DNA of 64,000 bases from the human T2T-CHM13v2.0 reference genome, Homo sapiens (GCA_009914755.4 CP086569.2:10400001-10464000); one strand, 5' to 3'. Numbered from the stretch's first letter, positions 1-63,669 are shown. Numbers and translations: made by a program. The notes: generated by a model from the sequence alone, not told the origin.

Positions 1-3000
1 TGAATGCACACATCACAAAGAAGTTTCTAGGAATTTCTATATGTAGTTTTTATGTGGAGATATTTCCTTTTCCACAATAGGCCTAAAAGCTCTCCAAATA
101 TCCACTTACAGATTCTTCAAAAAGAGAGATTCAAAACTGGTCAATCAAAAGATAGGTTCATCCTTGTGTAAGTTGACTGCACACGTGGCAAAGAAATTTC
201 TCAGAATGCTTCTGTGTAGTTTTTATGTGAAGATATTTGCTTTTCCATGGTATGTCTCAAAGTGCTCCAAATATCCACTTGCAGATTCTGCAAAAATGGA
301 GATTCAAAACTGCTCAATCAAAAGATAGTTTCCACTCTGTGGGTTGAATGCACACATAACAAAGAAGTTTCTCAAAATGCTTCTGTGTAGTTTTTATGGG
401 AAGATATTTCCTTTTCCAAAATAAGCCCCAAAGCCCTCCAAATATCCACTTCCAGTTCTACAAAAAGAGTGTTTCTGAACTGCTCAATCGAAAGAAAGGT
501 TGCACTCTGTGTGATGAATTCACTCACCGCAAAGAATTCTGTGAGAATGCTTCTGTGTAGTTTTTATATGAAGATATTTCCTTTTCCACAATAGGCCTCA
601 AATTGCTCCAAATATCCACTAGCAGATTGTACAAAAAGAGTGTTTCAAAACTGCTCAATGAAAAGAAAGATTCAACACTGTGAAATAAATGCACACACCA
701 CAAAGAAGTTTCTCAGAATGCTTCTGTGTAGTTTTTATGTGAAGATATTTGCTTTTCCACAGTAGGCCTCAAAGGGCTCCAAATATTCACGTGCAGATTC
801 TACAAAAAGAGAGATTTCAAAACTGCTCAATCAACAGACAGGTTTGACTCTGTGAGTTGAATGCACACATCACAAAGAAGTTTCTCAGAATGCTTCCGTG
901 TAGTATTTGTGTGAAGATATTTGATTTTCCACAGTAGACCTCAAAGCTCTCTAAACATCCCCTTGCAGATTCTGCAAAAAGAGAGATTCAAAACTGCTCA
1001 ATCAAAAGATAGGTTCAACACTGTGAGTTGAAGACACACATAACAAAGAAGTTTCTCAGAAGATTTCTGTGTAGTTTTTATTTGAAGATATCTTTTTTTC
1101 CAAAATTGACCTCCAAGCCCTCCAAATATCCACTTCCAGATTCTACAAAAATAATGTTTAAAAACTGCTCAATCAAAAGAAGAGTTCAATCCTGTGAGAG
1201 GAATGCGCACATCAAAAAGGAATTTCTCAGAATGCTTTTGTGTAGTTTTTATGTGAGGATATTTCCTTTTCCACAACAGGCCACAAAGGGCTCCAAATAT
1301 CCACTTGCAGATTCTACTGAAAGAGTGCTTCTAAACTGCTCAATCAAAAGAAAGTTTCAACTCTCTGAGATGAATGCACACATCACAAATAAGTTTCTTA
1401 GAATGCTTCTGTGTAGATTTTATGTGAAGATATTTCCTTTTTCACCATAGGCCACAAAAGACTCCAAATATGCAATTGTAGATTCTACAAAAAGAGAGTT
1501 TCAAAACTGCTCAACCAAAAGATAGATTCAACTCTGTGACTTGAATGCACACATCACAAAGAAGCTTCTCAGAATGCTTCTGTGTAGTTTTTATGTGAAG
1601 ATATTTGATTTTCCACAGTTGGCCTCAAAACCCTCCAAATATCCAGTAACAGATTCTGCAAAAACAGAGATTCGAAACTGCTCAATCAAAATATAGTTTC
1701 AACTCTGTGAGTTGAATGCACACATCACAAAGCAGTTTCTCAGAATGCTTCTGTGTAGTTTTTATGTGAAGCTATTTTATTTTCCACAGTAGGCCTCAAA
1801 GCACTCCTAATATCCACTTGCAGATTCTGCAAAAAGAGATTCAAAACAGCTCAATCAAAAGATAGTTTCAACTCTGTTAGTTGAATACACACCTCACAAA
1901 GAAGTTTCTCAAATTCTTCACTGTAGTTTTTATGTGAAGATATCTTTTTCTCCAATATAGTCCTCAAATCCCTCCAAATAGCCACTTCCAGATTCTACGA
2001 AAAGACTGTTTCAAAACTGCTCAATCCAAAGAAAGGTTCAACTCTGTGTGGTGAATGCACTCATCACAAAGAAGTTTCTCTGAACACTTCTGTGTAGTTT
2101 TTATTTGAAGATATTTACTTTTCCACCATAGGGTGAAAAGGGCTCCAAATACCCACTTGCAGATTCTACAAGAGAGATGCTAAACTGCTCATTGAAAAGA
2201 TAGGTTCAACTCTGTGAGTTGAATGCGCACATCACAAATCAGTTTCTCAGAATGCTTCTGTGTAGTTTTTATGTGAAGATATTTCCTTTTCCACTGTAGG
2301 CCTCAAATAGCTCCAAAGATACACTTGCAGATCATACAAAAACAGTGTTTCAATACGGCTTAATCAAAAGAAATGTTCAACTCTGTGAAATGAATGCATA
2401 CATCACAAAGAAGTTTCTCAGAATTTACTTTCAGAATTTTAGGTGAAGATATTTGCTTTTCCACGTTAGGACTCAAAGCGCTCCAAACATCCACTGGCAG
2501 ATTCTACAAAAAGAGTGTTTCAAAACTGCTCAATCATAAGATAGGTTCAACCCTGTGAGATGAATGCACACGTCAAAGGGAGTTTCTCAGAATGCTTCTC
2601 TCAATCAAAAGATAGGTTCAACTCAGTGAGTTGAATGCACACATCACAAAGAAGTTTCTCAGAATGCTTTCATGTAGTTTTTATGTGAAGATATTTGCTT
2701 TTCCACAATAGGCCTCAGATGTCTACAAATATCCACCCTCAGATCCTGCAAAAAGAGAGATTTAAAACTGCTTAATGAAAAGATGGGTTCGACTCTGTGA
2801 GTTGAATGCACACATCACAAAGAAGTTTCTCAGAATGCCTCTCTGTAGTTTTTATGTGAGGATATTTGATTTCCCAAGTAGGCCTCAAAGGGCTCCTAAT
2901 ACCCACTTGCAGATTCTGCAAAAAGAGAGATTCATAACGGCTCAATCAAAAGACAGGTTCAACTCTGAGTTGAATGCATACCTCTCAAAGAAGTTTCTAA

Positions 3001-6000
3001 GAATGCTTCTGTGTAGTTTTTATGTGAAGATATCTCCGTCTCCAAGATAGCAATCAAAGCCCTCCAAATATCCACTTCCAGATTCTATGAAAAGAATGTT
3101 TCAAAACTGCACAATCCAAAGAAAGTTTCAACTCTGTTTGAAGAATGCACTCATCCAAAGAAGTTTCTCTGAATGCTTCCGCATAGTTTTTATTTGAACA
3201 TATTTCCTTTTCTACCATAAGGCGTGAAGGGCTCCAAATATCCACATGCAGATTCTCCAAAAAGAGAGATTCTAAACTGCTCAATCTACAGATAGGTTCA
3301 ACTCTGTGAGTTGAATGCACACATCACAAAGAAGTTTCTGAGAATGCCTCTGTCTAGTTTTTATGTGAAGATATTTCCTTTTCCACCATAGGCTTCAAAT
3401 CGCTTCACATATCCACTTGCAGATTCTACAAAAAGAGTGTTTCAAAACTGCTCAATCAAAAGAAAGGTTCAACTCGGTGAGATGAATGCACACATCACAA
3501 AGACGTTCCACAGAATCCTACTGTCTAGTTTTTATATGAAGAAATTTGCTTTTACCCCAGAGGCTACAAAGCAATCAAAATATCCACTTGCAGATTGTAC
3601 AAAAAGAGTGTTTCAAAACTGCTCCATTAAAAGAAATGTTCAACTCTGTGAGCTGAATACACACATCACAAAGTAGTTTCTCAAAATGTTTCTGTCTAGT
3701 TTTTATATGAAGATATTACTTTTTCCACTGTGGGCCTCAAACCCCTCCAAATATCGATTTGCAGATACCACAAAAACACAGAGTCCAAATTGTGCAATCC
3801 AAAGAAAAAGGTACAACTCTGTGGGATAAATGGACACATCACAAAGCAGTTTCTTAGAATGCTTTTGTGTAGTTTTTATGTGAAGATATTTACTTTTCCC
3901 CATTAGGCCTCAAAGCGCTCCAAATATCCTCTTGGAGATTCTACTAAAAGAGTGTGTCAAAGCTGCTCAATCAAAAGTAATGTTGAATTCTGTAAGATGA
4001 ATGAGCACATCACAAAAAAGTTTCTCAGAATGCTTCTGTGTGGTTCTTATGCGAAGATACTTCCTTCTCCACCATTGGCCTCAAAGCACTCCACATATCC
4101 TCTTGCAGATTCTACAAAAAGAGTGTTTGAAAACTGGTGAATGAAAAGAAAGTTTCAATTCTGTGAAATGAATGCACTCATCCAAAGAAGTTTCTCAGAA
4201 TGCTTCTGTCTAGTTTTTATTTGAAGATACTTCCTTTTCCACCATCGGCCCCAAATCACTCCAAATATCCACTTACAGATTCTTCAAAAAGAGTTTTTCA
4301 AAACTGCTCAATCAAAAGAAAGGTTCATCTCTCTGAGATGAATGCACACATCACAAAGAAGTTTCTCAGAATGCTGCTGTATAGTTTTTATTTGAAGATG
4401 TTGCCTTTTCCACTAGTGGCCAAAAAGCTCTCCAAATATCCACTTGCAGATTCCACAAAAAGAGTGTTTCATAATTGCTCAATCAAAAGAAAGATTCAAC
4501 TCTCTGAGTTGAATGCACACATCGCAAAGAAGTTTCTGGGAATGCTTCTGTCCAATTTTAGAGTGAAGATATTTCATTTTCCACAATAGGCCTCAAAGCA
4601 CTCCAAATATCCACTTCCACATTCTACAAAAAGATTGTTTCAAAACTGCTCAATCAAAAGAAAGTTTCATCTCTGTGACATGAATGCATGCATCACAATG
4701 AAGTTTCTCATAATGCTTCCATGTAATTTTTATGGGCAGATATTTCCTTTTCAACCATAGGCCTCAAAGTTCTCCACATATCCAATTGCAGATTCTACAA
4801 AAAGAGTTTTTCAAAACTGCTCAATTAGAGGAAAGGTTCAAATCTGTGATATGAATGCACTGATCACAAAGAAGTTTGTCATAATGCTTCTGTGTAGTTT
4901 TATGTGAAGATATTTCCTTTTCCACAATAGGCCTCAGTGTGCTCCAAATATCCACTTGCTGATTATATAAAAAGAGTGTTTCAAAACTCCTCAATCAAAA
5001 GATAAGTTCAACTCTGTGACTTGAATGCACACATTACAAAGAAGTGTCTCACAATGCTTCTGTGTAGTTTTTATGTGAAGACATTTCCTTTTCCACAAGA
5101 AGCCTGAAAGCGCTCCAAATATCCACTTGAAGATCCTACAAAAAGAGTGTTTCAAAATGGTTCAATCAAAAGCAAGGTTCAACTCTGTGAGATGAATGCA
5201 CACATCACAAAGAAGCTGCTCAGAATGCTTTTGTATAGTTTTTATGTGAAGATATTTCGCTTTCCACCATAGGTCTCAACGGGCTCCAAATATCAACTTG
5301 CAGATTCTACAAAAAGAGTGTTTCCAAACTGCTCAATCAAATGACAGTTTCAACACTGTGAGATGAATGCACACATCACAGAGAAGTTTCTCAGAATGGT
5401 TCTGTGTAGTTTTTATGTGAAAATATTTCCTTTTCCACAATAGGTCTCAAAGCACTCCAAATATCCACTTGCAGATTCTACAAAAAGAGTGTTTCAAAAC
5501 TGCTCAATCAAAAGAAAGGTTTGACCCTGTGTGATGAATTTATTCATCACCAAGTAGTTTCTCAGAATGCTTCTGTGTAGTTTTTTTGTGAAGATATTTC
5601 CTTTTCCACAATAGGTCTCAAAGGGCTCCAAATATCCACTTGCAGATTGTACAAAAAGAGTGTTTCAAAAGGTCTCAATCAAAAGAAAGTTTCAAATCTC
5701 TGAGATAAATACACACATCACAAAGAAGTTTCTCAGAATGCTTCTGTGTAGTTTTATGTGAAGATATTTGCTTTTCCACAGTAGGCCTCTAAGCACTCCA
5801 TATAACCACTTGCAGAGTCTACCAAAAGGGTGTTTCAAAACTGCTCAGTCATAAGATAGGTTCAACCCTGTGAGATGAATGCACACATCACAAAGAAGTT
5901 TCTCAGAATGCTTCTGTGCAGTTTTTATGTGAAGATATTTCCTTTTCCACAATAGGCCTCAGTGTGCTCCAAATATCCACTTGCAGATTCTATAAAAAGA

Positions 6001-6932
6001 GTGTTTCCAAACTGCTCAATCAAATGAAAGTTTCAACACTGTGAGATGAATGCACACATCACAGAGAAGTTTCTCAGAATGGTTCTGTGTAGTTTTTATG
6101 TGAAAATATTTCCTTTTCCACAATAGGCCTCAAAGCGCTCCAAATATCCACTTGTAGATTCTACAAAAAGAGTGTTTCAAAACTGCTCAATCAACAGAAA
6201 GGTTCAACTCTGTGTGATCAATTTATTCATCACCAAGTAGTTTCTCAAAATCCTTCTGTGTAGTTTTTAAGTGAAGATATTCCCTTTTCCACAATAGGCC
6301 TCAAAGGGCTCCAAATACCCACTTGCAGATTGTACAAAATGAGTGTTTCAAAAAGCCTCAATCAAAAGAAAATTTCAAATCTGTGAGATAAATACACACA
6401 TCACAAAGAAGTTTCTCAGAATGCTTCTGTGTAGTTTTTATGTGAAAGTATTTCCTTTTCCACAACAGGCCTCAAAGTGCTCCAAATATCCACTTGAAGA
6501 TTATACAAAAAGAGTGTTTCAAAACTGCTCAATCAAAAGAAAGTTACCACTCTGTGTGATGAATTTATTCATCACAAAGAAGTTTCTCAGAATCCTTCTG
6601 TGTAGTTTTTATGTGAAGTCATTGCCTTTTCCTCCATAGGCCTCAAAGGGCTCCAAATACCCACTTCCATATTCTACAAAAAGAGAGTATCAAAACTGCT
6701 CAATCAAAAGATAGGTTCAACTCTGTGAGTTGAATGCACACATCACAAAGAAGTTTCTCAGAATGCTTCTATATAGTTTTTATGTGAAGATATTTCCTTT
6801 TCCACAATAGGCCTCAAAATGCTCCTAATATCCTCTTGCAGATTCTACAAAAACAGTGTTGCAAAACTGCTCAATCAAAAGAAAGTTTCAACTCTGTGAG
6901 ATGAATGCACACATCACAAAGAAGTTTCTCAG
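1..6932. repeat. Alpha satellite (alphoid) array of about 40 diverged 171-bp monomers, monomeric pericentromeric type. It lies in reverse-complement orientation relative to the usual consensus.
   Basis: A ~171-bp periodicity runs throughout. The recurring monomer motifs are ...ttctgtgtagtttttatgtgaagatatttccttttccacaataggcctcaaag...ctccaaatatccacttgcagattctacaaaaagag...gaatgcacacatcacaaagaagtttctcagaatgc. Monomer-to-monomer divergence is roughly 10–25%. One monomer near 2562–2632 is truncated to about 70 bp. Confidence 0.95.
5366..6734. repeat. Local higher-order duplication of about 4 alpha monomers (~684 bp) inside the monomeric array.
   Basis: Diagnostic monomer variants (..cacatcacagagaagtttctcagaatggttctg.. 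/ ..tgatgaatttattcatcaccaagtag.. / ..gagataaatacacacatcacaaagaag..) recur in the same order at 5366–6050 and 6050–6734. A further 'tttattcatcac' monomer follows at 6565. Confidence 0.6.
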
Positions 6933-7063
6933 GATGATGGCTGAATAGGAACAGCTCCAGTGTACAGCTCCCAGCATGAGCGATGCAGAAGAGGGTTGAT
7001 TTCTGCATTTCCCTGTGATGTACTGGGTTCATCTCACTAGGGAGTGCCAGACAGTGGGCTGAG
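6933..7063 (+). mobile_element. L1 5'UTR fragment, the extreme 5' end of an L1PA-type element, abutting the alpha satellite.
   Basis: gatgatggctgaataggaacagctccagtgtacagctcccagcatgagcgatgcagaagagggttgatttctgcatttcc...ctcactagggagtgccagacagtgggc matches the first ~130 nt of the primate L1 5'UTR (GGAGCCAAGATGGCCGAATAGGAACAGCTCCAG...). The similarity is lost after about 7063. Confidence 0.55.
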
Positions 7064-7419
7064 AAGTCTCTGCACCCCTGAAAGAGTGACTGTGTTGACT
7101 GTTTCCTGAGCTCTGTCATGCCCCAGAAACTTCCAGTAATGCGTGGAAGACCAGCATCTTGTTGGTGCTCTCCTTTCCAGTTTTCAAACAGGCTATATTG
7201 GAGACTCCCCATTTTGCAGGAAACAGGAATTCTTCATCAAGATGTGATGCATGGGACGTTTCTTTTCTCTGTAGTTTCACTCTCCTTGTCTACATGAAAA
7301 TAAACAGGATCCACACACCTACCTGTATGAGACTATTACGGCAACTGTGACACCCACGTGCTCACTAAGATTTGGCAGCCTGATCCTGGGACAATGGTAC
7401 TGATGGTTATCCAGACACA

Positions 7420-8739
7420 CCCCACCACAGTCACTAGCAAACCCACTCCCAAACACACAGACACACACGGGCACAAGCGTGGGAACACAAGCACACACAC
7501 AGACACACAAAGACACAGACAGCTTGAAGGTGAACAAGGGACAGAGGGATGGAGAGATAGAAAAGGAAGGAGAGTGAGAAACAGTGATAGAGAGAGAGAC
7601 AGAGAGGAATTGGGGAAATTGAGAGAGACAGAGAGCAAGCAAGCTGGAGTGGGAAGTAGAGAAATGGAGAGGGTGAAGGAGCTAGAGTGGGAGAGCAACA
7701 GACTTGGAGAGGGAGACTCTGCTCTGGTAGATAGGGGCCCCTTTGGCGAGGGTAGGGTGGAGGGTGCCTGGGCCGGGCTAGAACAGGGGGACAGGGCCAC
7801 CCATGCAGGAAAACCAATGGAGCCCTGAGACGTCTTTTTACTTGGATTGGTTAGTTGCTTTGGGGGTGCGTTTTGTAGCGTCATTCCTTTGTTGGCTCCT
7901 CCCTGTCCTCTTGGTGCTGTGGGCCCTGAAAATTATGGAGTGCACCGGCCCTGTGGTGGAAGCAGTGGCTTCGAGCCTGCCCATGGGCCGCAGCTTGGGT
8001 CTCTCTCACTTTCTGGGTGGTATGGCCATAGACAATGGCAGTGGCATGTGGCTGGCCCAAAAGCACGGTCCAGCTATGTCCACCTGATTCCAGGCATCAC
8101 CATCAACTCTGGGCTGTGAGGCTGGGATCAGGCACCCCAGAGCTGCTTGCCTGTGGCCGGGCTGCTCTCCCCCTCTACGCCCAAGCACCACTAGGCACCG
8201 CGCTGCACTTTCTGCCGACCTCCCACAGTGTCCCCCTGTCGCCGGTGGCTAGACCACATGTGGGACCGCAGAGGTGCCAGAGGCCTCCATCCCCTGCCAG
8301 GGCTCTGGACTCCCCAGGCGGCCACCCTCTCACTGACAGTCCAGGCCTTCCCCTGGCTCTTGAGCTCCTGAGCTTCCAATACCTGGGGCCCACTCAGGAC
8401 AAGATGTGCTCCAAGGCATTAGGGCCCAGGGCCCAGGGTCCTGGGTTCCCCTCTGGCCCTCTGCCTTGCAGTGGAAAAATTGTTTTGGATCCCTCACTGC
8501 CCCTCCTGCAAGGCCCCCTCTTGTCTCACACACCCAGAACCACCAGGGCTGCCCGAGTCGAACAGCTGGCCCAGCCCTGCGGGCCCTTTTTCTCACAATG
8601 CCCACTCCATCGTCGCTTGTCCCAAGGAAGACCTGGCCCATGGCCAACAGAGCAGGAAGGCCCTACTTTGCCCCGCACTGGCATTAGAGCCCCGGCAGCT
8701 TGATCCCAGGAAAGAGGGGCTGACAGACACCCAGAAACA
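7420..8739. repeat. Macrosatellite unit 1 (~1.32 kb). It lacks about 300 bp including most of the 5S-like segment.
   Basis: Bounded by the acacccc/accac landmarks at 7417 and 8737. Only the 5' end of the 5S-like block survives (gggtggtatggccatagac, 8016–8034) before the unit rejoins the D region homology. Confidence 0.7.
8016..8034 (-). pseudogene. Remnant of the 5S-like segment in unit 1, about the first 19 nt only.
   Basis: gggtggtatggccatagac is the reverse complement of GTCTAtGGCCATACCACCC. The rest is deleted relative to units 2 and 3. Confidence 0.4.
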
Positions 8740-10359
8740 CCCCACCACCACCAGGAGCAAACACATCCTCTCACACACAAACAGATACACAGGGGTGCAT
8801 GCACGCAGGCACACACGCACACGGACACACATGGACACACACACAGACAAAGACACAGACAGCTTGAAGAGAGGGATGGAGAGATAGAAACAAAGGGAGA
8901 GATAGAGACAGAGAGGGTGGAGAGACAGGGAGAGAAGGTGACAGAAGAGCGAGAGGTGGAGGGGGAAGAAAAGAGGGTGAGGGAGCCAGAGAGCAAGAGC
9001 GATTGAGCCTTGGAGAGGGAGGCTCTTCCCCAGATATACAGGGCCCCTTTGAGCAGGCCAGGGTAGGGTGGAGGGTGCTTGGGCTGGGCCAAACAGGGGG
9101 GCAGGGCCGTCCAAGGGAGAGGACCAACTGAGCCCTGAGACGTTTATTCTTGGGTTGGTTGGTTACTTTGGGGATGTGTTCGGTAGGGTCCTTCCTTTGT
9201 TTGCTCCTATCTGTCTTCTTGATGCGGTAGGCTCTGAGATTTTCAGAGTGTGCCTGTCCATCTTTCGGGAGCCATAATGCCGAGCATGCTCACAGTGCAC
9301 AAGACCTGGGTCTCTCTTGTGTCCTCGAGAATGGATTTCACACGAAGTTAGTGGCAGTGGAAATCCAAGTGCACAGGGATGGTTTTCCTGGTGGCTGATG
9401 AAGGCAATGTCCCTCCCCCGTGGAAAGCAGCCTATGCGTTGTGGAGCACGGAAAAGTGGAAGTAGAGTCAGGGGGTGGTTGGGAAGCATGGCGACAAAAG
9501 GGGGAAAGAGGGAGCGGGGAGCCAAAAGCCTACAGCACTCAGTATTCACAGGGGGTCTCGCATCCAAGTACTAAGCAGGCCCGACTCTGCTTAGCTTCCA
9601 AGATCAGTCAAGATCCCATGTGTTCAGGGTGGTATGGCCATAAAGGCCCACAGTGGCACCTGGCTGCCACAGGAGCCCAGCTCAGTCATGTCTGCTCCAC
9701 TCCAGGCATCACCGCCACCTCGGGGCCAAGGGGCTCAGATCCAGGGCCCCAGAGCTGCTCGCTCGCAGCCGGGCTGCTCTCCCCATCAAGGCCCCAGCAC
9801 CACTGGCCACCGTGCTGCGCCTTCTGCCGGCCTCCCAGAGCCACCTACCTCGCCTGCGGCCAGACCACGTGCAGGACCGCCATGGTGCTGCCCTGCTGCT
9901 GCACGGGAGAGCCAGAGGCCTCAGTCCCCTGCCCAGGTTCCAGGCACACCAGGTGGCCTCCCTTTTTGCAGATGCTCCAGGGGAGCTCCAGAGCTTCCAA
10001 CACATCGGGCTGGCTCAGGACTGCACGTGCTCTGAGGCATCAGGGCCAAGGGCCCATGGTCCTGGGATCCCCTCCGGTCCTCCTCCTTGCAGCAGAAAAA
10101 TTGTTTTGGATCCCTCTCCTCCCCTCCTGCAAGGCCCCCTCTTACCCCACACACCCAGAGCTGCCAGTGCTGCCCAGGGGCTAACAGCCGGCCCAGCCCC
10201 ACGGGCCCTTTATCCCACAACGCCCACACCATTATCGCTTGTCCCGACGAGGACCTGACCTTGGCCAATGGGGAGGGAAGGCTCTGCTTTTCCCCGTGCT
10301 GGCACTAGAGCCCCAGCAGCCTGATCCCTAGAAAGAGGAGCTGACAGTCACCAAGACAC
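8740..10359. repeat. Macrosatellite unit 2 (~1.62 kb), the most complete unit. It is CpG-depleted.
   Basis: Contains all modules including the full-length 5S-like segment at 9525–9645. Many positions that are CpG in unit 3 are TpG/CpA here. Confidence 0.75.
9525..9645 (-). pseudogene. 5S rRNA-derived segment (121 bp, about 88% identical by eye to canonical human 5S rRNA). Likely a pseudogene or 5S-related element inside macrosatellite unit 2.
   Basis: The reverse complement reads ..GGCCATACCACCCTGAACacatgGGATCTtGaCTGATCTtGGAAGCTAAGCAGaGTCGGGCCTGcTTAGTACTTGGATGcGAGACCcCCTGtGAATACtGaGTGCTGTAGGCTTTTGGC. Length and ends are conserved, including the terminal GGCTTTT T-run. Confidence 0.75.
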
Positions 10360-10524
10360 ACCCCACCACCACCACGAGCAAACCCACCCCAACACACACA
10401 CACAGAGATACACACAGGTGCACGTGCACAGACACACACGGACACACACACCACACCTGGGCACACACACACGGACACACAAAGACACAGACACAGATAG
10501 CTTGAAGTAAGGGAGGAGACTACC

Positions 10525-10972
10525 CCTCATATTGTCTTATGCCCAATTTCTGCCTCCAAAGAAAGAAGAAGTAAAATCTAAAAGGCAGAAATGAAATCCA
10601 CAGCCAGACAGCCCTGCGCCACACCCTGGGCCTGGTAGTTAAAGATCGACCCCTGACCTACTCTGTTATGTTATCTATAGATTACAGACATCGTATAGAA
10701 AAGCACTGTGAAAATCCCTGTCCTGTTTTGTTCTGATATAATTACCGGTGCATGCAGCCACCAGTCACATACCCTCTGCTTCCTCAATCCATCAGGACCT
10801 TCTCACGCGGACCCCCTTAGAGTTGTAAGCTCTTAAGAGGGACAGGAATTGCTCACTCAGAGAGCTCGGTTTTTGGAGATGTGAGAGTGCCGATGCTCCC
10901 AGCTGAATAAAGCCCTTCCTTCTACAACTCGGTGTCTGAAGGGTTTTGTCTGCGGCTCCTCCTGCTACAGGA
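10525..10972 (+). mobile_element. Solo-LTR-like insertion, of ERV1 / LTR2-like type (by recollection of the LTR 3' end), interrupting macrosatellite unit 3.
   Basis: About 450 bp absent from units 1 and 2, inserted between ..gacacagatagcttgaag and the resumed GA-rich module (..ggagagcaagggagacaggaatggagaaatagaa). It contains gctgaataaagcccttcc (a poly-A signal) and ends ..gggttttgtctgcggctcctcctgctaca, a TG..CA-type LTR terminus. Confidence 0.4.
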
Positions 10973-11599
10973 GAGCAAGGGAGACAGGAATGGAGAAATA
11001 GAACCAGAGGGAGAGCGAGAGAGACAGCGATACAGAGACAGAGAAGGGGGGAGGAGAGAGAGGGGGAGGGAAAGAGAGCCCGACAGTAGAGCGCCAGGTG
11101 GAGGGGGAAGTAGAGAAAGGGAGAGGGTGAGGGAGTTGTAGAGGGAGAGGGACAGAGTCATGGAAAGGGAGTCTCTACTCAGGTAGACAGAGCACCTTTG
11201 AGCAGGCCGGGGTGGGGTGGAAGGTGCTTGGGCTGGGCTAGAACAGGGGGTCAGGGCCCCCCACGTGGGAAAACCAAAGGAGCCCTGAGACGTGTTTTCT
11301 TTTTTCCTTGGATTGGTTGGTTGCTTCAGGGGAGCGTTTCATAGGGTTCTTCCTTTGTTTGTTTCTTTCTATCTCCTTGGTGCAGTGGGCCCCGAGATTT
11401 GTAGAGTGTGCTCATCCCTCTGGCTGGAGCCGTGGCGCCAAGCATGTCCACGCAGTGAGGCCTGGGTCTCTCTCCTGTCCTCAGGACTGGAGTTTACACG
11501 AAGTCGGTGGCCTTGGGAAACCAGGTGCACAGACACGGATTTCCTCGTGGCTGGCGAAGACAATGTCCTTCCCCTGGGGAAAGCAGCCCACGGGTTCTG

Positions 11600-12480
11600 G
11601 AGCGGAGGTCTTGGCTGGGGTCTGTGGGACCCGCTGCCCCTGCCCGCCCCTTCCCCCGGCTTGGACGATTGCAGCGGCGCTAGATGAATGAATAGAATTT
11701 CCTGGGAGTCCAGGAAGCCTGAAGACACCTGCGACCTCAGGAACGCGCGCCTGCGCCCTCGGGGTCGGTCCCGTCCCGCCCGGGTTGTAGCCAGGCTCCT
11801 GGTGGGCTGCTGCGAGTCGGAAGAGGTGGGATGCTGCTGCCCGGCTGTGCTGCAGTCGCGGATCTTCAGGAGGAGGTCCCGGGCTTCAGCTGGGACGCGT
11901 GGGCTGTCAAGGGGGAGCAGAGGCAGGGCGGGGGCGGGGTTGTGAAGCACTGAGACTAGAGGGGGAAAGAGGGAGGGAGCGGGAAGCCAAAAGCCCAAGG
12001 TACCTGCTATTACCAGGCGGAATCCCATCCAAGTACTAACCAGGCCCGACTCTGCTTAGCTTCAACAGATCAGAGGCAAGCGGGTGCGTTCAGGGTGGTG
12101 TGGCCTAGACGCTAGCAGCGGCGCCTGGCTGCCCCAAGAGCCCGTCCCAGCCATGCCCGAACGACTCCAGGCGTCACCGCCATCCCGGGGCAGCGGGTCT
12201 CGGATCCGGGACCCCCAGAGCCGCTCGCCTCTGCCCCAGGGCAGCTGTCTCCCTCTACACCCGAGTACCGCCGGCCTCCTGGCGAGTCCCGCCGTCACCG
12301 GCGGCCAGACCTGGCGCAGGACCAACGTGGCGCCGCCGTGCTGTTGCTGGCGGGCGCCAGAGGCCTCAGTCCCCTGCCCAGGATTCCGGCTCTCGGGGCG
12401 GCCTCCTTTCCGCCCACGCTCCAGTTCTTCCTCCAGCTCCCCAGCTCCGGAGCTTCCACCACATCTGCCGGCTCAGGACG
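11600..12480. promoter_or_regulatory. Candidate CpG island. Macrosatellite unit 3 retains dense CpGs and GC boxes, whereas paralogous units are CpG-decayed.
   Basis: Examples: aacgcgcgcctgcgccctcggggtcggtcccgtcccgcccgggttg, gcagggcgggggcggggttg, ccgggctgtgctgcagtcgcggatc, cgccgtcaccggcggccagacctggcgcaggaccaacgtggcgccgccg. The same aligned positions in unit 2 read tg/ca, e.g. ccgccacctcggggccaagg versus ccgccatcccggggcagcgg. Confidence 0.45.
11990..12110 (-). pseudogene. 5S rRNA-derived segment (~121 bp, about 85% identical by eye to canonical 5S) in CpG-rich macrosatellite unit 3.
   Basis: The reverse complement reads GTCTAgGcCaCACCACCCTGAACGCaCCCGcTtgccTCTGATCTgttGAAGCTAAGCAGaGTCGGGCCTGGTTAGTACTTGGATGGGAttCCGCCTGGtAATAgCaGGTaCcTtGGGCTTTTGGCTT. 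The C-box region TGGATGGGA and the T-run are retained. Confidence 0.75.
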
Positions 12481-12495
12481 GGTCGCGCTCATCCC

Positions 12496-13810
12496 TTAAC
12501 TTAACTTTTTGTTGTTTCTGTTTATATTTTATTGTGCTGTGTCTTGAAATGTTGTAGTTATTACTTTTGGATATTATTTAGTATTCCGACTTTGAATAAG
12601 AGTAGTTTGCACACCACACAGCTATAGTGTTATAATATTCTGTTTTGTTGTGTATCCTATTAGCAGTGAGGATTTTTTTTTTTATCTTTAGGTGATCATT
12701 TATTGCTCGTTAATGTTCTTTTCTTCCTGATTGAAGTACTTCCTTTAGCATTCCTTTAGGACAGGTGTGGTATTCATAAAATACTTCAGCTTTTGTTTGT
12801 CTGAAAAAGTTAGTATTTCTTCTTTTTATTTGAAGAATATTTTCACTGTATATTCTATTCTAAGGTAAAAGTTTTTTTTTCCTTTAGTACTTTAAATATT
12901 TATTGCTTCTCTCTCCTGACCAGTAGAGTTTCCACCGTAAAGTCTGCTGCCAGACGTGTTGGAGCTCCCCAGTATGTCATTTGTTTCTTTTCTCTTTCTT
13001 CCTTTAGAACTTTTCTTTATCTTTGACTTTTGGAAGATCTATTGAATGCTTTGAAGTAGTCTTTTTTGGGTTAAATCTGCTTAATGTTCTATAACATTTT
13101 TGTAGTTGGATATTGTTATCTTTCTCTAGGTTTGGAAAGTTCTCTGTGATTATCCCTCTGAATAAATTTTTCTACCCCTGCCTCTTTCTCTACATCTTCT
13201 TTAAAGCCAATAACTCTTAGATCTGTCTTTGTGAGGCTCTTTTCTAGATCCTCCCCTGCCTCTTTCCCTACATCTTCTTTAAAACAAATAACTCTTAGAT
13301 CTGTCTTTGTGAGGCTATATTCTGGATCCTGTTGGCATGACTTGTTGTTTTTATTCTTTCTCTTTTGTCTCTTCTATGTATTTTCAAAGAGCCGTCTTCA
13401 AGCTCACTATTTCTTCTGCTTGATCCATTCTGCTATTACATGGCTCTAATGCATTCTTCAACATGCCAATTGCATTTTTCAGCTCAGAATTTCTGCTTAA
13501 TTTGCTGTAACTATTTCAATCTCTTTGTTGAGTTTAGCTGATAAAATTTGGAATTTCTTTACTTTGTTATCTTAAATTTCTTTCAGTTTTTTTTTTAAAA
13601 AAATACAGCTATTTTGAATTCTCTGTCTGAAACGTCACATATCACTTTTTCTCCAGGATTTGTCCACAGTGCCTTATTTAGTTCACTTGGTGAGGTCATG
13701 TTTTCCTGGATGGTGTTGATGCTAGTAGATGTTCTTCAGTGTCAGGACATTAAAATCTTGGGCATGCAGCACCATATGAGAGGTTTAAAAAATAAAATTT
13801 AAAGAGAGAA
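12496..13810 (-). mobile_element. L1 (older L1PA/L1PB-like) ORF1 region and inter-ORF region, minus strand.
   Basis: The reverse complement encodes ORF1 motifs (…PGKHDLTK…, ENFPNLEK from ttctctaggtttggaaagttctc). Similar to the ORF1-upstream segment at 26404–26658 of the plus-strand L1. Confidence 0.7.
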
Positions 13811-53415: not shown

Positions 53416-55380
53416 TCGTATATATCCGTTTTTAACACCATTTAAAAAAAATACCGTCCTTTCCCCATTGAACAGTGTTGACGCCCTTGTTAAAAATCAT
53501 GACCATGTTTTTTGGTTCTTTATTTCTATTGCATTGGTCTTTGTGTCTGTCTCTATGCTGCTACAGCATTGTTTTGCATACTGAAGTTTGAAACCAGAAG
53601 ATGTTACTCTTCTAACTTTGTCAGTTTTTAAGATTGATTTGGCTGCTTGGGGTTTTTTGAGATTTCAACTGAATTTTAGAATAGGTTTTTCTATTTTTGC
53701 AAATATTGGAATTTTTATAGTGATTTTACTGAATCTGTAGATGACTATAGATAACAATGGCCCCTTGACAAGGTTTTGTCTTCCAGTCCATAAACACTTG
53801 ATGTCTTTTCATTTATTTGTGTCATCTTTAATACTTTCATGCCATGTTTATAGTTTTTGCTGTACAGGTTTTTCATTTCCTTGGTTAACTGGGTTTCTAC
53901 GTATTTTATTCTTTTGATGTTATCATACATGATACTGTTGCCTTGATTTCTTCTTCAGATAGTTTATTGTTATTGTAGAAATACAACTGATTTTTGTGTA
54001 TTGTTTTCTATCCTCCAGCTTTGCTGAATTTTATTTATTGCGTCTGAGAGTTTATCTCACGGAAACTAAAAGATTTTTAATATATAAGGTTATGTCATCT
54101 TCAAACAGATATTAAATAGAAGTAGTAAAAGCAGGCATCCTTGTTTTTGCTCTTAGGGTAAAAGCTTTCAGTCTTTCACCATGTTAGCTGTGTTTCTTTG
54201 TTTTGTTTTGTTTTTTGTACAGCATTATGTAAAGTGTTTTCTTTCTTTTTATAGCTTATTAAGTATATTTTATCATGAATGTGCATTAAATTTTGACAAA
54301 TGCTTCTTTTTCTTTGCTTAAGATGATCACATGCGGGTTTTTTCCTTATGTTAATGCGATATTACACTGATTTTCATGTATTGGAACATACTTTCATTTC
54401 AGGAGTCAATTATACTCATTCATAGTGTATAATCCGTTTAATGTACTGCTAAGTTTGAGTTGCTGGTATTTTGTTGAGGATTTTTGCATCAGCATTTATA
54501 AGGGATGTTTGTTTGTAGTTTTCTTATGGTGCCTTTTTCTGTCTTGGTGCCAGGGTAATACTGGACTCACAGAATAAGTTAGAAAAAATTACCTCCTCTT
54601 CAACGTTTGAAAAAGTTTGAGAAAAAGTGGTGTTAATTCTGTTTTAAACATTGGGTAGAATTTAACAGTGAAGCCATCTTGTCCAAGCTTTTCTTTGTTG
54701 CTGAGTTTTTGATTACTGATGTAATCTTCCTGCTGAATCTCCTTGCTGAATAGGTTTATTCAACTTTTCTGATTCAGTCTTAGTAGGTTTTTTTTTCCTA
54801 GGAATTTGTTCATTTTATTTAGGCTATTCAATTTTTTAGTGTATAGTTCCTTATGTTACTCTCCTACACCCCTTTTTTACTCCAAAAATTTGTTAGTAAT
54901 ATACCCATTTTATTTTTGAGTTTAGTAATTTGAATATTCCCTTTCTTTCTTAGTCAATCTAGATAAAATTTTGTCACTTTTGATATTTTTCAGAGAACAA
55001 ACTAGGTTGTGTTGATTTTTGATATGGTTTTTCTATTCTCTATTTCACTTATTTCCACTGCAAATTTTATCTTTTTTTTAATTTTTGCTAGTTTTAGTTG
55101 TCCCTCTTTAATAGTCCCTCTTTTTCTCTCTGTTTTTAGTTCCTTAGGAGTAAAGTTGTTGATTTGGTATCTTATTTTTTATAATCATTTATAGCTATAA
55201 ATTTTTCCCTTATGGTACCGTTTTTGATGTATCTCCTAACTTTTGGTATTTCATGTTTTTAATTTGTCCCCATATATTTGCTCTTGTGATTTCTTCTTTT
55301 TCCATCCTTGAGAGTTTCATACCTATATTTTTAGATATAAAATGTGTAACCTACAAAATTTTCTTGATTTGTTTGTTTTA
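53416..55380 (-). mobile_element. Old L1 (L1M/L1PB-like) ORF2 fragment, minus strand. It is the probable host of the young L1 insertion.
   Basis: Minus ORF 53745..53930 MYDNIKRIKYVETQLTKEMKNLYSKNYKHGMKVLKMTQINEKTSSVYGLEDKTL (L1 ORF2 RT end). Further degenerate ORF2-like translation extends to about 55380. Confidence 0.55.
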
Positions 55381-62214: not shown

Positions 62215-62545
62215 CAAAGAAAGAGAGAAGAAAGGAAGGCAGGAAGGAGGGAGGAAGAAAGGAAGGAAGGGGACAAAGAAAGAGAGAAGGAAGGAAAGAA
62301 TGGGATAAGGAAGGATGGAGGGAAAGATGGGGAGAGAGAGAAAGAAAGAAGGGAGGAGGGAGAGAAAGAGGGAAAGAGAAAGAAGGAAAGAAAACAAGGA
62401 AGCAGGGAGGGAGAGAAAGAAGAAAGTAGAGGAAGGAAGGAAGAAAGTAAGGAAAGAGGGAGGGAAGGAAGGGAGAGAGAGAGGAAAGGAGGGAAAGAAA
62501 GAGAGAAAGGTGAAAGGTGGGGATGGGAAGACAAGAGGAGCCAGC
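62215..62545. repeat. Polypurine simple repeat, (GGAA)n/(GAAA)n/(GA)n-rich, about 330 bp.
   Basis: aaagaaagagagaagaaaggaaggcaggaaggagggaggaagaaaggaaggaaggggacaaagaaagagagaaggaaggaaagaatgggataaggaaggatggagggaaag... It is almost exclusively A/G on the plus strand. Confidence 0.9.
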
Positions 62546-63180: not shown

Positions 63181-63669
63181 GTCCCATTAAGTGGAGAGTG
63201 CTGATCCACAGGGTTGAGATCATTGACTTAGGGCTTGGAGTCTTATACAACATCCCTATGGGAGTTGGCCTCCATATTCCCTAACTTCCACGAATCTCAA
63301 ATGGTGATCTCAGACCAAAATATAGCCCAGATATTTTGCATTTGGCAATATTGCCCACTTTTCTACAACTTTATCATGGCAGCTTTGATGTGTTCACTTC
63401 TACAATCCCTGAAAGGATATGAGTTCAAGATCCTGCAAGGTTACAATCCAAGGATAGAAGAGCCTAGACAAGATTCCCATCAACTGGGTGATCAGTGCAG
63501 AGATACGTCACAAATCCTCAGTAGGCAAAGCCTAGACAAGAGTTACATCACCAGGGGGTTCAATGCAGAGATATGTTACAAAGCCCCCATAGGCAGAGCC
63601 TAGACAAGAGTTACATCACCTGGGTGACAGGCAAACAACAATGAAAACTTATTTTCATCCCCACTTCAG

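What the first reader, a model, noticed from the sequence alone, without database searches (positions are those of the whole stretch)
7370..12495. Composite 5S-rRNA-containing macrosatellite array next to alpha satellite
About three and a half tandem copies of a 1.3–1.6 kb unit sit roughly 400 bp from the edge of a monomeric alpha-satellite block. The unit is itself modular: a CA-rich microsatellite, a GA-rich microsatellite, about 600 bp of unique sequence, a 121-bp 5S-rRNA-derived segment on the minus strand, and about 650 bp of GC-rich unique sequence. The units have diverged by a 5S-region deletion in unit 1, an LTR insertion in unit 3, and a ~300-bp indel. The unit is too short, and the 5S copies too divergent (85–88%), to be the canonical 2.2-kb 5S rDNA repeat. 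I cannot match it from memory to a named human satellite (SST1/NBL2, D4Z4, DXZ4, RS447, ACRO1, beta satellite, LSAU and others all differ in unit size or content as I recall them). It may be an unnamed or recently catalogued composite pericentromeric repeat.
Basis: seen in the sequence. Interest (0 to 1): 0.8.

Follow-up and report, generated by a model that had tools for sequence, protein, structure and literature searches.

The report
Decayed pericentromeric copy of 5S rDNA
This is a short, decayed duplicate of the end of the human 5S ribosomal RNA gene array sitting next to centromeric satellite DNA; it belongs to a repeat family the telomere-to-telomere genome project catalogued in 2021, so it is real but ordinary.

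Summary
Positions 7354-12495 contain three tandem units, the last one truncated, each built as CA-rich / GA-rich / spacer / 5S (minus strand) / GC-rich spacer. The array starts about 420 bp from an alpha-satellite block.

It is not a new satellite. The two "unique" modules match the named T2T subunits COMP-subunit_5SRNA family-13719 and family-13720, in the published order. Each unit aligns over 86-97% of its length with the canonical 2.2-kb human 5S rDNA unit once that unit's AluY is removed. Hoyt et al. (bioRxiv 2021.07.12.451456) call this 5SRNA_Comp. They report 49 dispersed, Alu-less, LTR2-bearing copies enriched in centromere transition regions, most of them next to LSAU fragments.

The window also shares three features with contigs that carry intact 5S genes: the right array/flank junction (flank 94.6% identical), the LTR insertion site, and a left flank. 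The best reading is therefore a segmental duplicate of the 5S rDNA array end, made of edge units that had already diverged.

The 5S copies are pseudogenes (Rfam 59.5 and 55.8 bits against 114.6 for the real gene).

Verdict: already known, low interest.

The parts
1..6936 (.). Context: diverged alpha-satellite block (171-bp monomers, with a slightly better 342-bp periodicity).
   Evidence: TRF: period 171 x 40.2 copies at 71% matches; period 342 x 20.1 copies at 74% matches.
6937..7065 (+). Context: first ~130 nt of an L1 5'UTR. It abuts the alpha satellite and is cut off at about 7066.
   Evidence: Sequence read. The match to the L1PA 5'UTR start is from my own knowledge of that sequence and was not tool-tested.
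7066..7357 (-). Left flank of the array. It is homologous to a D4Z4/LSAU-BSAT composite subunit (family-4) and to the sequence beside 5S rDNA units in contig L009.
   Evidence: LSAU-BSAT family-4 consensus 235-393 matches 7357-7199(-) at 72%, E 8e-24. L009 2539-2724 matches 7066-7250 at 80%; L009 also carries an LSAU family-5403 match further out.
7354..8693 (+). Unit 1: CA-rich (~7375-7521), GA-rich (~7522-7702), 13719 5' part (7703-8004), deletion junction, 5S remnant (8015-8033, minus strand), 13720 (8034-8693).
   Evidence: blastn to the 13719 and 13720 consensi; 7354-8004 matches canonical 726-1496 and 8011-8158 matches canonical 224-376; alignment of the 5S remnant.
8694..10315 (+). Unit 2: CA-rich (8694-~8868), GA-rich (~8869-9008), 13719 with a 320-bp internal deletion (9009-9524), 5S pseudogene (9525-9645, minus strand), 13720 (9646-10315).
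9525..9645 (-). 5S rRNA pseudogene of unit 2.
   Evidence: Rfam RF00001 scores 59.5 bits against 114.6 for the canonical gene. Identity to human 5S is 86.4%. Changes G60A (box A), G71C (intermediate element), G86C and G93C (box C) are read from the alignment.
10316..12495 (+). Unit 3, truncated: CA-rich (10316-10507), solo LTR (10508-10959), GA-rich (10960-11177), full-length 13719 (11178-11989), 5S pseudogene (11990-12110, minus strand), 13720 truncated (12111-12495).
10508..10959 (+). 452-bp solo LTR inserted at the CA|GA junction. Hoyt et al. call the insertion in dispersed copies LTR2.
   Evidence: the canonical empty site is GCTT-GAAG-GAGAGC. The 4-bp target-site duplication GAAG is intact in paralog L003 and reduced to G in the window. 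L011 and L003 carry the same insertion site. The family name comes and could not be verified by sequence here.
11990..12110 (-). 5S rRNA pseudogene of unit 3, with the upstream D-box-like GGGCTCTTGGGGCAGCCAGGCG retained.
   Evidence: Rfam 55.8 bits; 83.6% identity; G60A, G89T and A90T read from the alignment.
12496..13441 (+). Right flank (AT-rich interspersed-repeat sequence), shared with the end of an AluY-bearing 5S array that has an intact gene.
   Evidence: L012 (AluY + exact 5S + 13720 truncated at the same base + flank) aligns to 11989-13441. The flank alone is 94.6% identical (K2P 0.057).

Best explanation
Positions 7354-12495 are a non-functional, pericentromeric paralogue of the human 5S rDNA repeat, that is, a dispersed copy of the composite that the T2T repeat annotation names 5SRNA_Comp. 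Each unit is the 5S rDNA unit in its pre-AluY form: CA repeat, GA-rich tract, spacer subunit 13719, 5S gene on the minus strand, spacer subunit 13720.

Shown: the block shares its right array/flank junction, its LTR insertion site and a left-flank segment with contigs that carry intact 5S genes.

Inferred: it arose by segmental duplication of the edge of the 5S rDNA array, flanks included, into a centromere transition region, very roughly 15-30 million years ago. The duplicated edge units had already diverged from each other and already carried the LTR. Since then the copy has decayed by point substitution (CpG is depleted in units 1 and 2) and by deletions: most of 5S plus about 550 bp in unit 1, and 320 bp in unit 2. 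It sits outside the concerted evolution that keeps the 1q42 array homogeneous.

The 5S copies are pseudogenes, and I expect no ribosomal function.
For: 1. Named subunits. The first 399 nt of the published 13719 consensus match 7703-8004, 9009-9402 and 11178-11558. The 13720 consensus matches 8344-8621, 9659-9770 plus 9985-10243, and 12122-12229 plus 12373-12490. Human 5S lies between them on the minus strand (consensi).
2. Published description. Fig. S9 defines the composite as GA-rich plus CA repeat plus 5S plus 13719 plus 13720. It has an AluY only in the chr1 array and an LTR2 in the dispersed copies. There are 49 loci enriched in centromere transition regions, and Table S2 lists most of them next to LSAU singletons.
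3. Canonical unit. A 2237-bp unit was recovered from a metagenome contig (L010). The window units are collinear with it, and 86-97% of each unit aligns to the Alu-less 1904-bp version.
4. No retroposition. The region upstream of 5S, including the D-box-like motif, is co-duplicated.
5. Shared junctions. L012 aligns to 11989-13441 and has the identical truncation point. L003 and L011 share the LTR site. L009 and LSAU family-4 match the left flank.
6. Order of events. Divergence is K2P 0.057 in the flank, 0.115-0.15 for GC-rich parts against their paralogues, and 0.27-0.33 between window units.
7. Pseudogene status. Rfam gives 59.5 and 55.8 bits against 114.6, and there are box A and box C substitutions.
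Against: - The published consensi were available only as their first 399 nt, and identity to them is modest (66-81%).
- The comparison contigs are short-read metagenome assemblies, presumed to be host contamination. Their species, chromosomal origin and freedom from chimerism are unverified. L003 and L012 cannot be joined through the same 5S gene.
- The window's own species and chromosome are unknown. I could not show which of the 49 tabulated loci it is, if any. Every dispersed locus in Table S2 is 3.36 kb or shorter and called a 'singleton', whereas this block is 5.1 kb with three units.
- The LTR family (LTR2) could not be checked by sequence.
- The left-flank homology is short (185 bp at 80%).
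- Unit 3 keeps CpG-island-like composition (CpG observed/expected 0.64-0.82 over 11501-12500), which pure neutral decay does not obviously predict.
Confidence: 0.9

Rival explanations
1. An independent, previously unnamed pericentromeric macrosatellite that happened to capture a 5S-derived segment.
For: The unit has a kb-scale tandem organisation next to alpha satellite. It matches none of the D4Z4/LSAU subunits tested inside the array.
Against: Every module, not only 5S, is collinear with the canonical 5S rDNA unit and with the named subunits 13719 and 13720. There are only three units at 67-78% identity. The family is already catalogued.
Confidence: 0.02
2. A cluster of retroposed 5S rRNA pseudogenes (RNA5SP type) lying by chance in repeated DNA.
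For: The 5S segments are diverged, like typical pseudogenes.
Against: Homology extends far beyond the 121-nt transcript on both sides, including the upstream D-box region and the whole spacer. There is no A-tail and no target-site duplication around the 5S segments.
Confidence: 0.01
3. A still-active minor 5S variant locus or Pol III/TFIIIC-bound element. On this reading the 5S-like copies, or the CpG-island-like part of unit 3, are transcribed or act as a chromatin boundary at the centromere transition.
For: Both copies exceed the Rfam gathering score. Box A has a single change and a T4 run follows the gene. Region 11501-12500 has GC 0.60-0.73 and CpG observed/expected 0.64-0.82. Hoyt et al. 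note unusual methylation behaviour in the chr1 array.
Against: Bit scores are half that of the real gene. There are two substitutions in box C of each copy, the TFIIIA contact region as known from the Xenopus and human 5S internal control region. Units 1 and 2 are CpG-depleted. The reviews read here name the 1q42 cluster as the only source of ribosomal 5S rRNA.
Confidence: 0.05
4. The window comes from a non-human primate and is the orthologue, not a paralogue, of the human 5S array end, with the array having collapsed in that species.
For: Flank identity to L012 is 94.6%, which is also the order of human versus Old World monkey divergence. The species of the window is not given.
Against: A primate needs a functional 5S array, and this block has only pseudogenes wedged against alpha satellite. 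The human catalogue already contains dozens of such pericentromeric paralogues with the same Alu-less, LTR-bearing structure.
Confidence: 0.04

Closest known systems
5SRNA_Comp composite, dispersed 'singleton' form (Hoyt et al., T2T-CHM13 repeat annotation; bioRxiv 10.1101/2021.07.12.451456)
   Same: Same modules in the same order: CA repeat, GA-rich tract, subunit 13719, 5S, subunit 13720. No AluY, an LTR insertion, a position at a centromere transition, and an adjoining LSAU-composite fragment.
   Different: This block has three tandem units over 5.1 kb, while the tabulated dispersed loci are 3.36 kb or shorter. The LSAU piece is only ~290 bp because it is cut off by L1 and alpha satellite. 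The LTR sits at the CA|GA junction, about 1 kb from the AluY site, not 'at the same location' as the preprint words it.
Canonical human 5S rDNA array (RNA5S1-17, 1q42; 2.2-kb unit)
   Same: The unit is homologous throughout, including the upstream promoter-proximal region. The right array/flank junction is the same as in a contig that ends an AluY-bearing array.
   Different: No AluY. The 5S copies are degenerate (59.5 and 55.8 bits against 114.6). Units are 67-78% identical to each other rather than ~100%. There is an extra ~215-bp segment in 13720, plus unit-specific deletions. Location is pericentromeric.
Classical macrosatellites (D4Z4, DXZ4, RS447, SST1)
   Same: A kb-scale unit arranged head to tail.
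   Different: Only three, highly diverged units, with no sign of homogenisation. The D4Z4-derived subunits (family-1 and family-5403) do not match inside the array.

Membership tests
5SRNA_Comp (T2T composite repeat) | [quoted passage not shown] | tested here: met
   three hits (7703-8004, 9009-9402, 11178-11558) at 69-70% identity, E 1e-39 to 7e-57. Only the first 399 nt of the consensus were available.
5SRNA_Comp (T2T composite repeat) | [quoted passage not shown] | tested here: met
   hits in all three units (8344-8621; 9659-9770 plus 9985-10243; 12122-12229 plus 12373-12490) at 66-81% identity.
5SRNA_Comp (T2T composite repeat) | 5S segment lies between 13719 and 13720, with the CA simple repeat and GA-rich tract completing the unit | tested here: met
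   Rfam 5S hits at 9527-9645(-) and 11992-12110(-). A remnant survives in unit 1. The CA and GA tracts were read and are collinear with the canonical unit.
5SRNA_Comp (T2T composite repeat) | Dispersed copies lack the AluY of the chr1 array | tested here: met
   No Alu is present. The window reads straight through the AluY insertion site; in the canonical unit the site is marked by the target-site duplication AAAAGCCTACAGCA.
5SRNA_Comp (T2T composite repeat) | Dispersed copies carry an LTR2 insertion | tested here: inconclusive
   A 452-bp LTR-like insertion with a 4-bp target-site duplication is present at 10508-10959 and is shared with L003 and L011. No LTR library was available to confirm the LTR2 family.
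5SRNA_Comp (T2T composite repeat) | Located in a centromere transition region, usually beside an LSAU-composite fragment | tested here: met
   Alpha satellite ends at 6936. An LSAU-BSAT family-4 match lies at 7199-7357. The chromosome could not be determined.
Functional 5S rDNA array (1q42) | Intact 5S gene | tested here: not met
   59.5 and 55.8 bits against 114.6 bits for canonical copies. The copies differ from the human gene at 16 and 20 positions, including box A and box C.
Functional 5S rDNA array (1q42) | 2.2-kb unit with AluY, with units near-identical through concerted evolution | tested here: not met
   There is no Alu, and inter-unit identity is 67-78%.
Macrosatellite | Many copies of a highly similar kb-scale unit, with polymorphic copy number | tested here: not met
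   There are three units of low identity. Polymorphism cannot be tested with these tools.
Retroposed 5S pseudogene (RNA5SP) | Homology restricted to the transcribed 121 nt | tested here: not met
   Homology extends through the upstream and downstream spacer.

The most novel reading that the evidence does not exclude
This could be the most complete surviving 'fossil' of the pre-AluY 5S rDNA locus. It is a three-unit block with homologues of both array flanks, and it is longer than any dispersed copy tabulated for CHM13. It preserves ancestral features lost from the modern array, namely a ~215-bp segment of the upstream spacer and the original T4 terminator context. The CpG-island-like unit 3 could be kept unmethylated because it acts as a promoter or as a Pol III/TFIIIC-type boundary at the centromere edge.
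Probability: 0.12. Interest if true: 0.4.

Novelty: already known. Interest (0 to 1): 0.12.

Why it matters
It matters little as a discovery, because the repeat family, its composition and its pericentromeric spread were published with the T2T-CHM13 repeat annotation.

Its residual value is evolutionary. Copies like this one are frozen outgroups for the 5S rDNA array. They show that the AluY inserted into the 3' end of the 5S gene, and that a ~215-bp upstream-spacer segment is missing from the modern unit. They also show that the LTR-bearing edge units existed before the pericentromeric duplications.

For a genome scan, the practical lesson is that Rfam 5S hits beside CA and GA microsatellites and GC-rich sequence near centromeres should be masked as 5SRNA_Comp.

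Tried and rejected
- **Collection scans for the exact human 5S gene or D-box+5S pattern.** Viral contigs and genome contigs gave 0 hits. Only the metagenome scan worked.
- **D4Z4/LSAU subunits inside the array.** Family-5403 matched only an unrelated GA-rich tract at 62.2 kb, and family-1 (the DUX4 part) matched nothing. Only family-4 matched, in the left flank. The array itself is therefore not LSAU.
- **Size matching to Table S2.** The 'LSAU 2.19 kb + 5S 3.23 kb = 5.42 kb' blocks happen to equal the length of 7066-12495. I considered this a possible identification and rejected it as coincidence, because the LSAU homology here is only ~290 bp.
- **Coding potential.** ORFs of 150-254 aa inside the GC-rich array have no Pfam match. 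I treat them as spurious.
- **LTR family.** No Dfam/Repbase-type library is available. My recollection that the 3' end resembles HERV-E LTRs is not evidence.
- **Literature.** The published Science version (PMC9301658) and Sorensen & Frederiksen 1991 (PMC328554) are not held. The old report of a minor 1.6-kb human 5S repeat class is cited from memory only and was not compared.
- **Which Table S2 locus this is.** chr15:17.19 Mb is the only LTR2-bearing entry without a listed LSAU neighbour, but its size (2522 bp) does not fit. This is unresolved.


Full report
**1. Observation**

TRF shows alpha satellite over 1-6936. Rfam at gathering threshold finds exactly two RNAs in the 64-kb window. Both are 5S_rRNA on the minus strand, at 9527-9645 (59.5 bits) and 11992-12110 (55.8 bits).

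Self-comparison of 6900-13000 gives long direct-repeat alignments with offsets of 1320, 1612, 2114 and 2461 bp and E-values down to 1e-163 (families). So the tandem organisation, the modular unit, the 5S deletion in unit 1, the LTR in unit 3 and the ~300-bp indel are all real.

Some details need correcting:
- Every module occurs three times, with the last one truncated. That is about 2.8 units, not 3.5.
- The units are only 67-78% identical to each other.
- 5S identity to the human gene is 86.4% and 83.6%.

**2. Identity**

The T2T repeat paper (Hoyt et al., bioRxiv 10.1101/2021.07.12.451456) describes a composite called 5SRNA_Comp. [quoted passage not shown] The composite is arrayed 128 times on chromosome 1 with an AluY. 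It is also present at 49 other locations on 13 chromosomes, enriched in centromere transition regions, where it lacks the AluY and carries an LTR2.

Table S2 of that paper lists the loci. They lie in the centromeric regions of chr9, 12, 13, 14, 15, 16, 20, 21 and 22, and most abut an LSAU singleton. The table also gives the first ~400 nt of each subunit consensus.

Blastn of those consensi against the window hits only inside the finding, once per unit and in the published order, with 5S between them. Nothing else in the window matches.

**3. Relation to the real 5S rDNA**

A pattern made of the D-box region plus the exact human 5S gene found 15 contigs in metagenome assemblies. At least one is labelled human gut, and I presume they are host contamination. 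L010 is a collapsed circular unit of 2237 bp.

The window units are collinear with this unit:
- Unit 3: 10973-11995 matches canonical 1003-2035, and 11989-12229 matches canonical 125-369.
- Unit 2: 8344-9447 matches 373-1631, then 9449-9537 matches 1951-2042 (the 320-bp deletion), then 9524-9770 and 9985-10517 follow.

Against an Alu-less version of the unit (1904 bp), 86-97% of each window unit aligns.

The upstream promoter-proximal sequence GGGCTCTTGGGGCAGCCAGGCG is retained in unit 3. These are therefore DNA-level copies of rDNA units, not retroposed 5S RNA.

All three window units, and also contig L012, carry about 215 bp that the canonical unit lacks, between canonical positions 376 and 393.

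**4. Origin**

*Right junction.* Contig L012 reads AluY, then an exact 5S gene, then 13720 truncated at the same base as in the window, then the same AT-rich flank. It aligns to 11989-13441. The flank alone is 94.6% identical (K2P 0.057).

*LTR site.* L011 and L003 carry intact 5S genes next to spacer variants that are 84-86% identical to the window in the blastn alignments (86.5-88.8% on pairwise realignment). They contain the two ends of the same LTR at the same site. The 4-bp target-site duplication GAAG is intact in L003, and the canonical unit shows the empty site GCTT-GAAG-GAGAGC.

*Left flank.* Positions 7066-7357 match LSAU-BSAT subunit family-4. They also match, at 80% over 185 bp, the sequence next to near-canonical units in L009, which carries an LSAU family-5403 match further out.

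*Order of events.* The window's units differ from each other (K2P 0.27-0.33) about twice as much as each differs from its paralogue (0.115-0.15). So the unit divergence and the LTR insertion predate the duplication.

I infer a segmental duplication of an array end, flanks included, into pericentromeric DNA. The age of roughly 15-30 million years is my own estimate from K2P 0.057 and commonly used primate substitution rates.

Two caveats apply. The contigs are short-read assemblies of unverified origin. Also, L003 and L012 cannot be joined through the same 5S gene, so the exact layout of the source array end is not established.

**5. Function**

The canonical gene scores 114.6 bits in Rfam, and the window copies score about half that.

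Read against the classical internal control region (box A at 50-64, intermediate element at 67-72, box C at 80-97; established knowledge from Xenopus and human 5S genes), the alignment shows these changes:
- Unit 2: G60A, G71C, G86C and G93C.
- Unit 3: G60A, G89T and A90T.

ORFs inside the array have no Pfam domain. Units 1 and 2 are CpG-depleted (observed/expected 0.05-0.5). Region 11501-12500 in unit 3 keeps CpG observed/expected of 0.64-0.82 at 60-73% GC.

My best reading is a decaying relic without ribosomal function. A residual Pol III, boundary or promoter role for unit 3 is not excluded but has no support here.

**6. Comparison and novelty**

The block meets every testable defining feature of the dispersed form of 5SRNA_Comp. 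The LTR family name is the one feature I could not test.

It fails the criteria for the functional 5S array, which needs an intact gene, the AluY and homogeneous units. It also fails the criteria for a macrosatellite and for a retroposed pseudogene.

The finding is therefore already known.

Two points go beyond the catalogue. This block has three units over 5.1 kb, whereas the tabulated dispersed loci are 3.36 kb or shorter. The LTR lies at the CA|GA junction, about 1 kb from the AluY site, rather than 'at the same location' as the preprint says.

I could not determine which tabulated locus this is, or whether the window is from CHM13 or even from human.

Noticed in passing
L010 (canonical 5S rDNA unit) positions ~2029-2237 and 1-141; compare window 9518-9547: In the canonical unit the AluY is inserted into the 3' end of the 5S gene, with a 14-bp target-site duplication AAAAGCCTACAGCA (positions 125 and 2029). 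As a result, the T-rich sequence just downstream of the modern human 5S gene is the complement of the Alu A-rich tail. The window units show the uninterrupted ancestral site (GGCTTTTGG...).
   Followed up: partly
window 10508-10959; L003 and L011 ends: The LTR in this dispersed copy lies at the CA|GA junction (canonical ~947), about 1 kb from the AluY site. The preprint's wording that dispersed copies carry LTR2 'at the same location' as the AluY therefore does not hold for this locus or for the L003/L011 paralogues. The target-site duplication GAAG is intact in L003 and reduced to G in the window.
   Followed up: yes
window 8158-8344, 9770-9985, 12229-12373; L012 ~560-800: A ~215-bp segment of the upstream spacer (subunit 13720) is present in all three window units and in the terminal unit of contig L012, but absent from the homogenised canonical unit. 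Either the modern array lost it or the edge lineage gained it.
   Followed up: partly
window 11501-12495: This is a CpG-island-like stretch (GC 0.60-0.73, CpG observed/expected 0.64-0.82, about 1 kb) in unit 3, in contrast to the CpG-depleted units 1 and 2. Whether it reflects germline hypomethylation is unknown.
   Followed up: no
window 6937-7065: The first ~130 nt of an L1 5'UTR directly abut the last alpha-satellite monomer and stop abruptly at about 7066, where the LSAU-like flank begins. This is probably the left breakpoint of the duplicated block.
   Followed up: no
window 13175-13330: A 78-bp tandem duplication (2 copies, 92% matches) lies in the right flank. Paralogue L012 has a single copy here, seen as a ~77-nt gap in the alignment, so the duplication arose after the loci separated.
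   Followed up: partly
window 1-6936: The alpha-satellite block scores better at period 342 (score 6287, 74% matches) than at period 171 (score 4070, 71% matches). This hints at an old dimeric organisation rather than purely random monomers. There is also a local 242-bp irregularity at 2362-2844.
   Followed up: no
window 38222-38479, 62216-62510, 63461-63624: Other small tandem repeats elsewhere in the window: a 48/92-bp repeat (5.5 or 2.7 copies), a ~290-bp GA-rich low-complexity tract that weakly matches LSAU family-5403 by composition only, and a 68-bp repeat (2.4 copies). The rest of the window looks like ordinary L1- and Alu-rich DNA (RVT_1 domain at 52831-53445).
   Followed up: no
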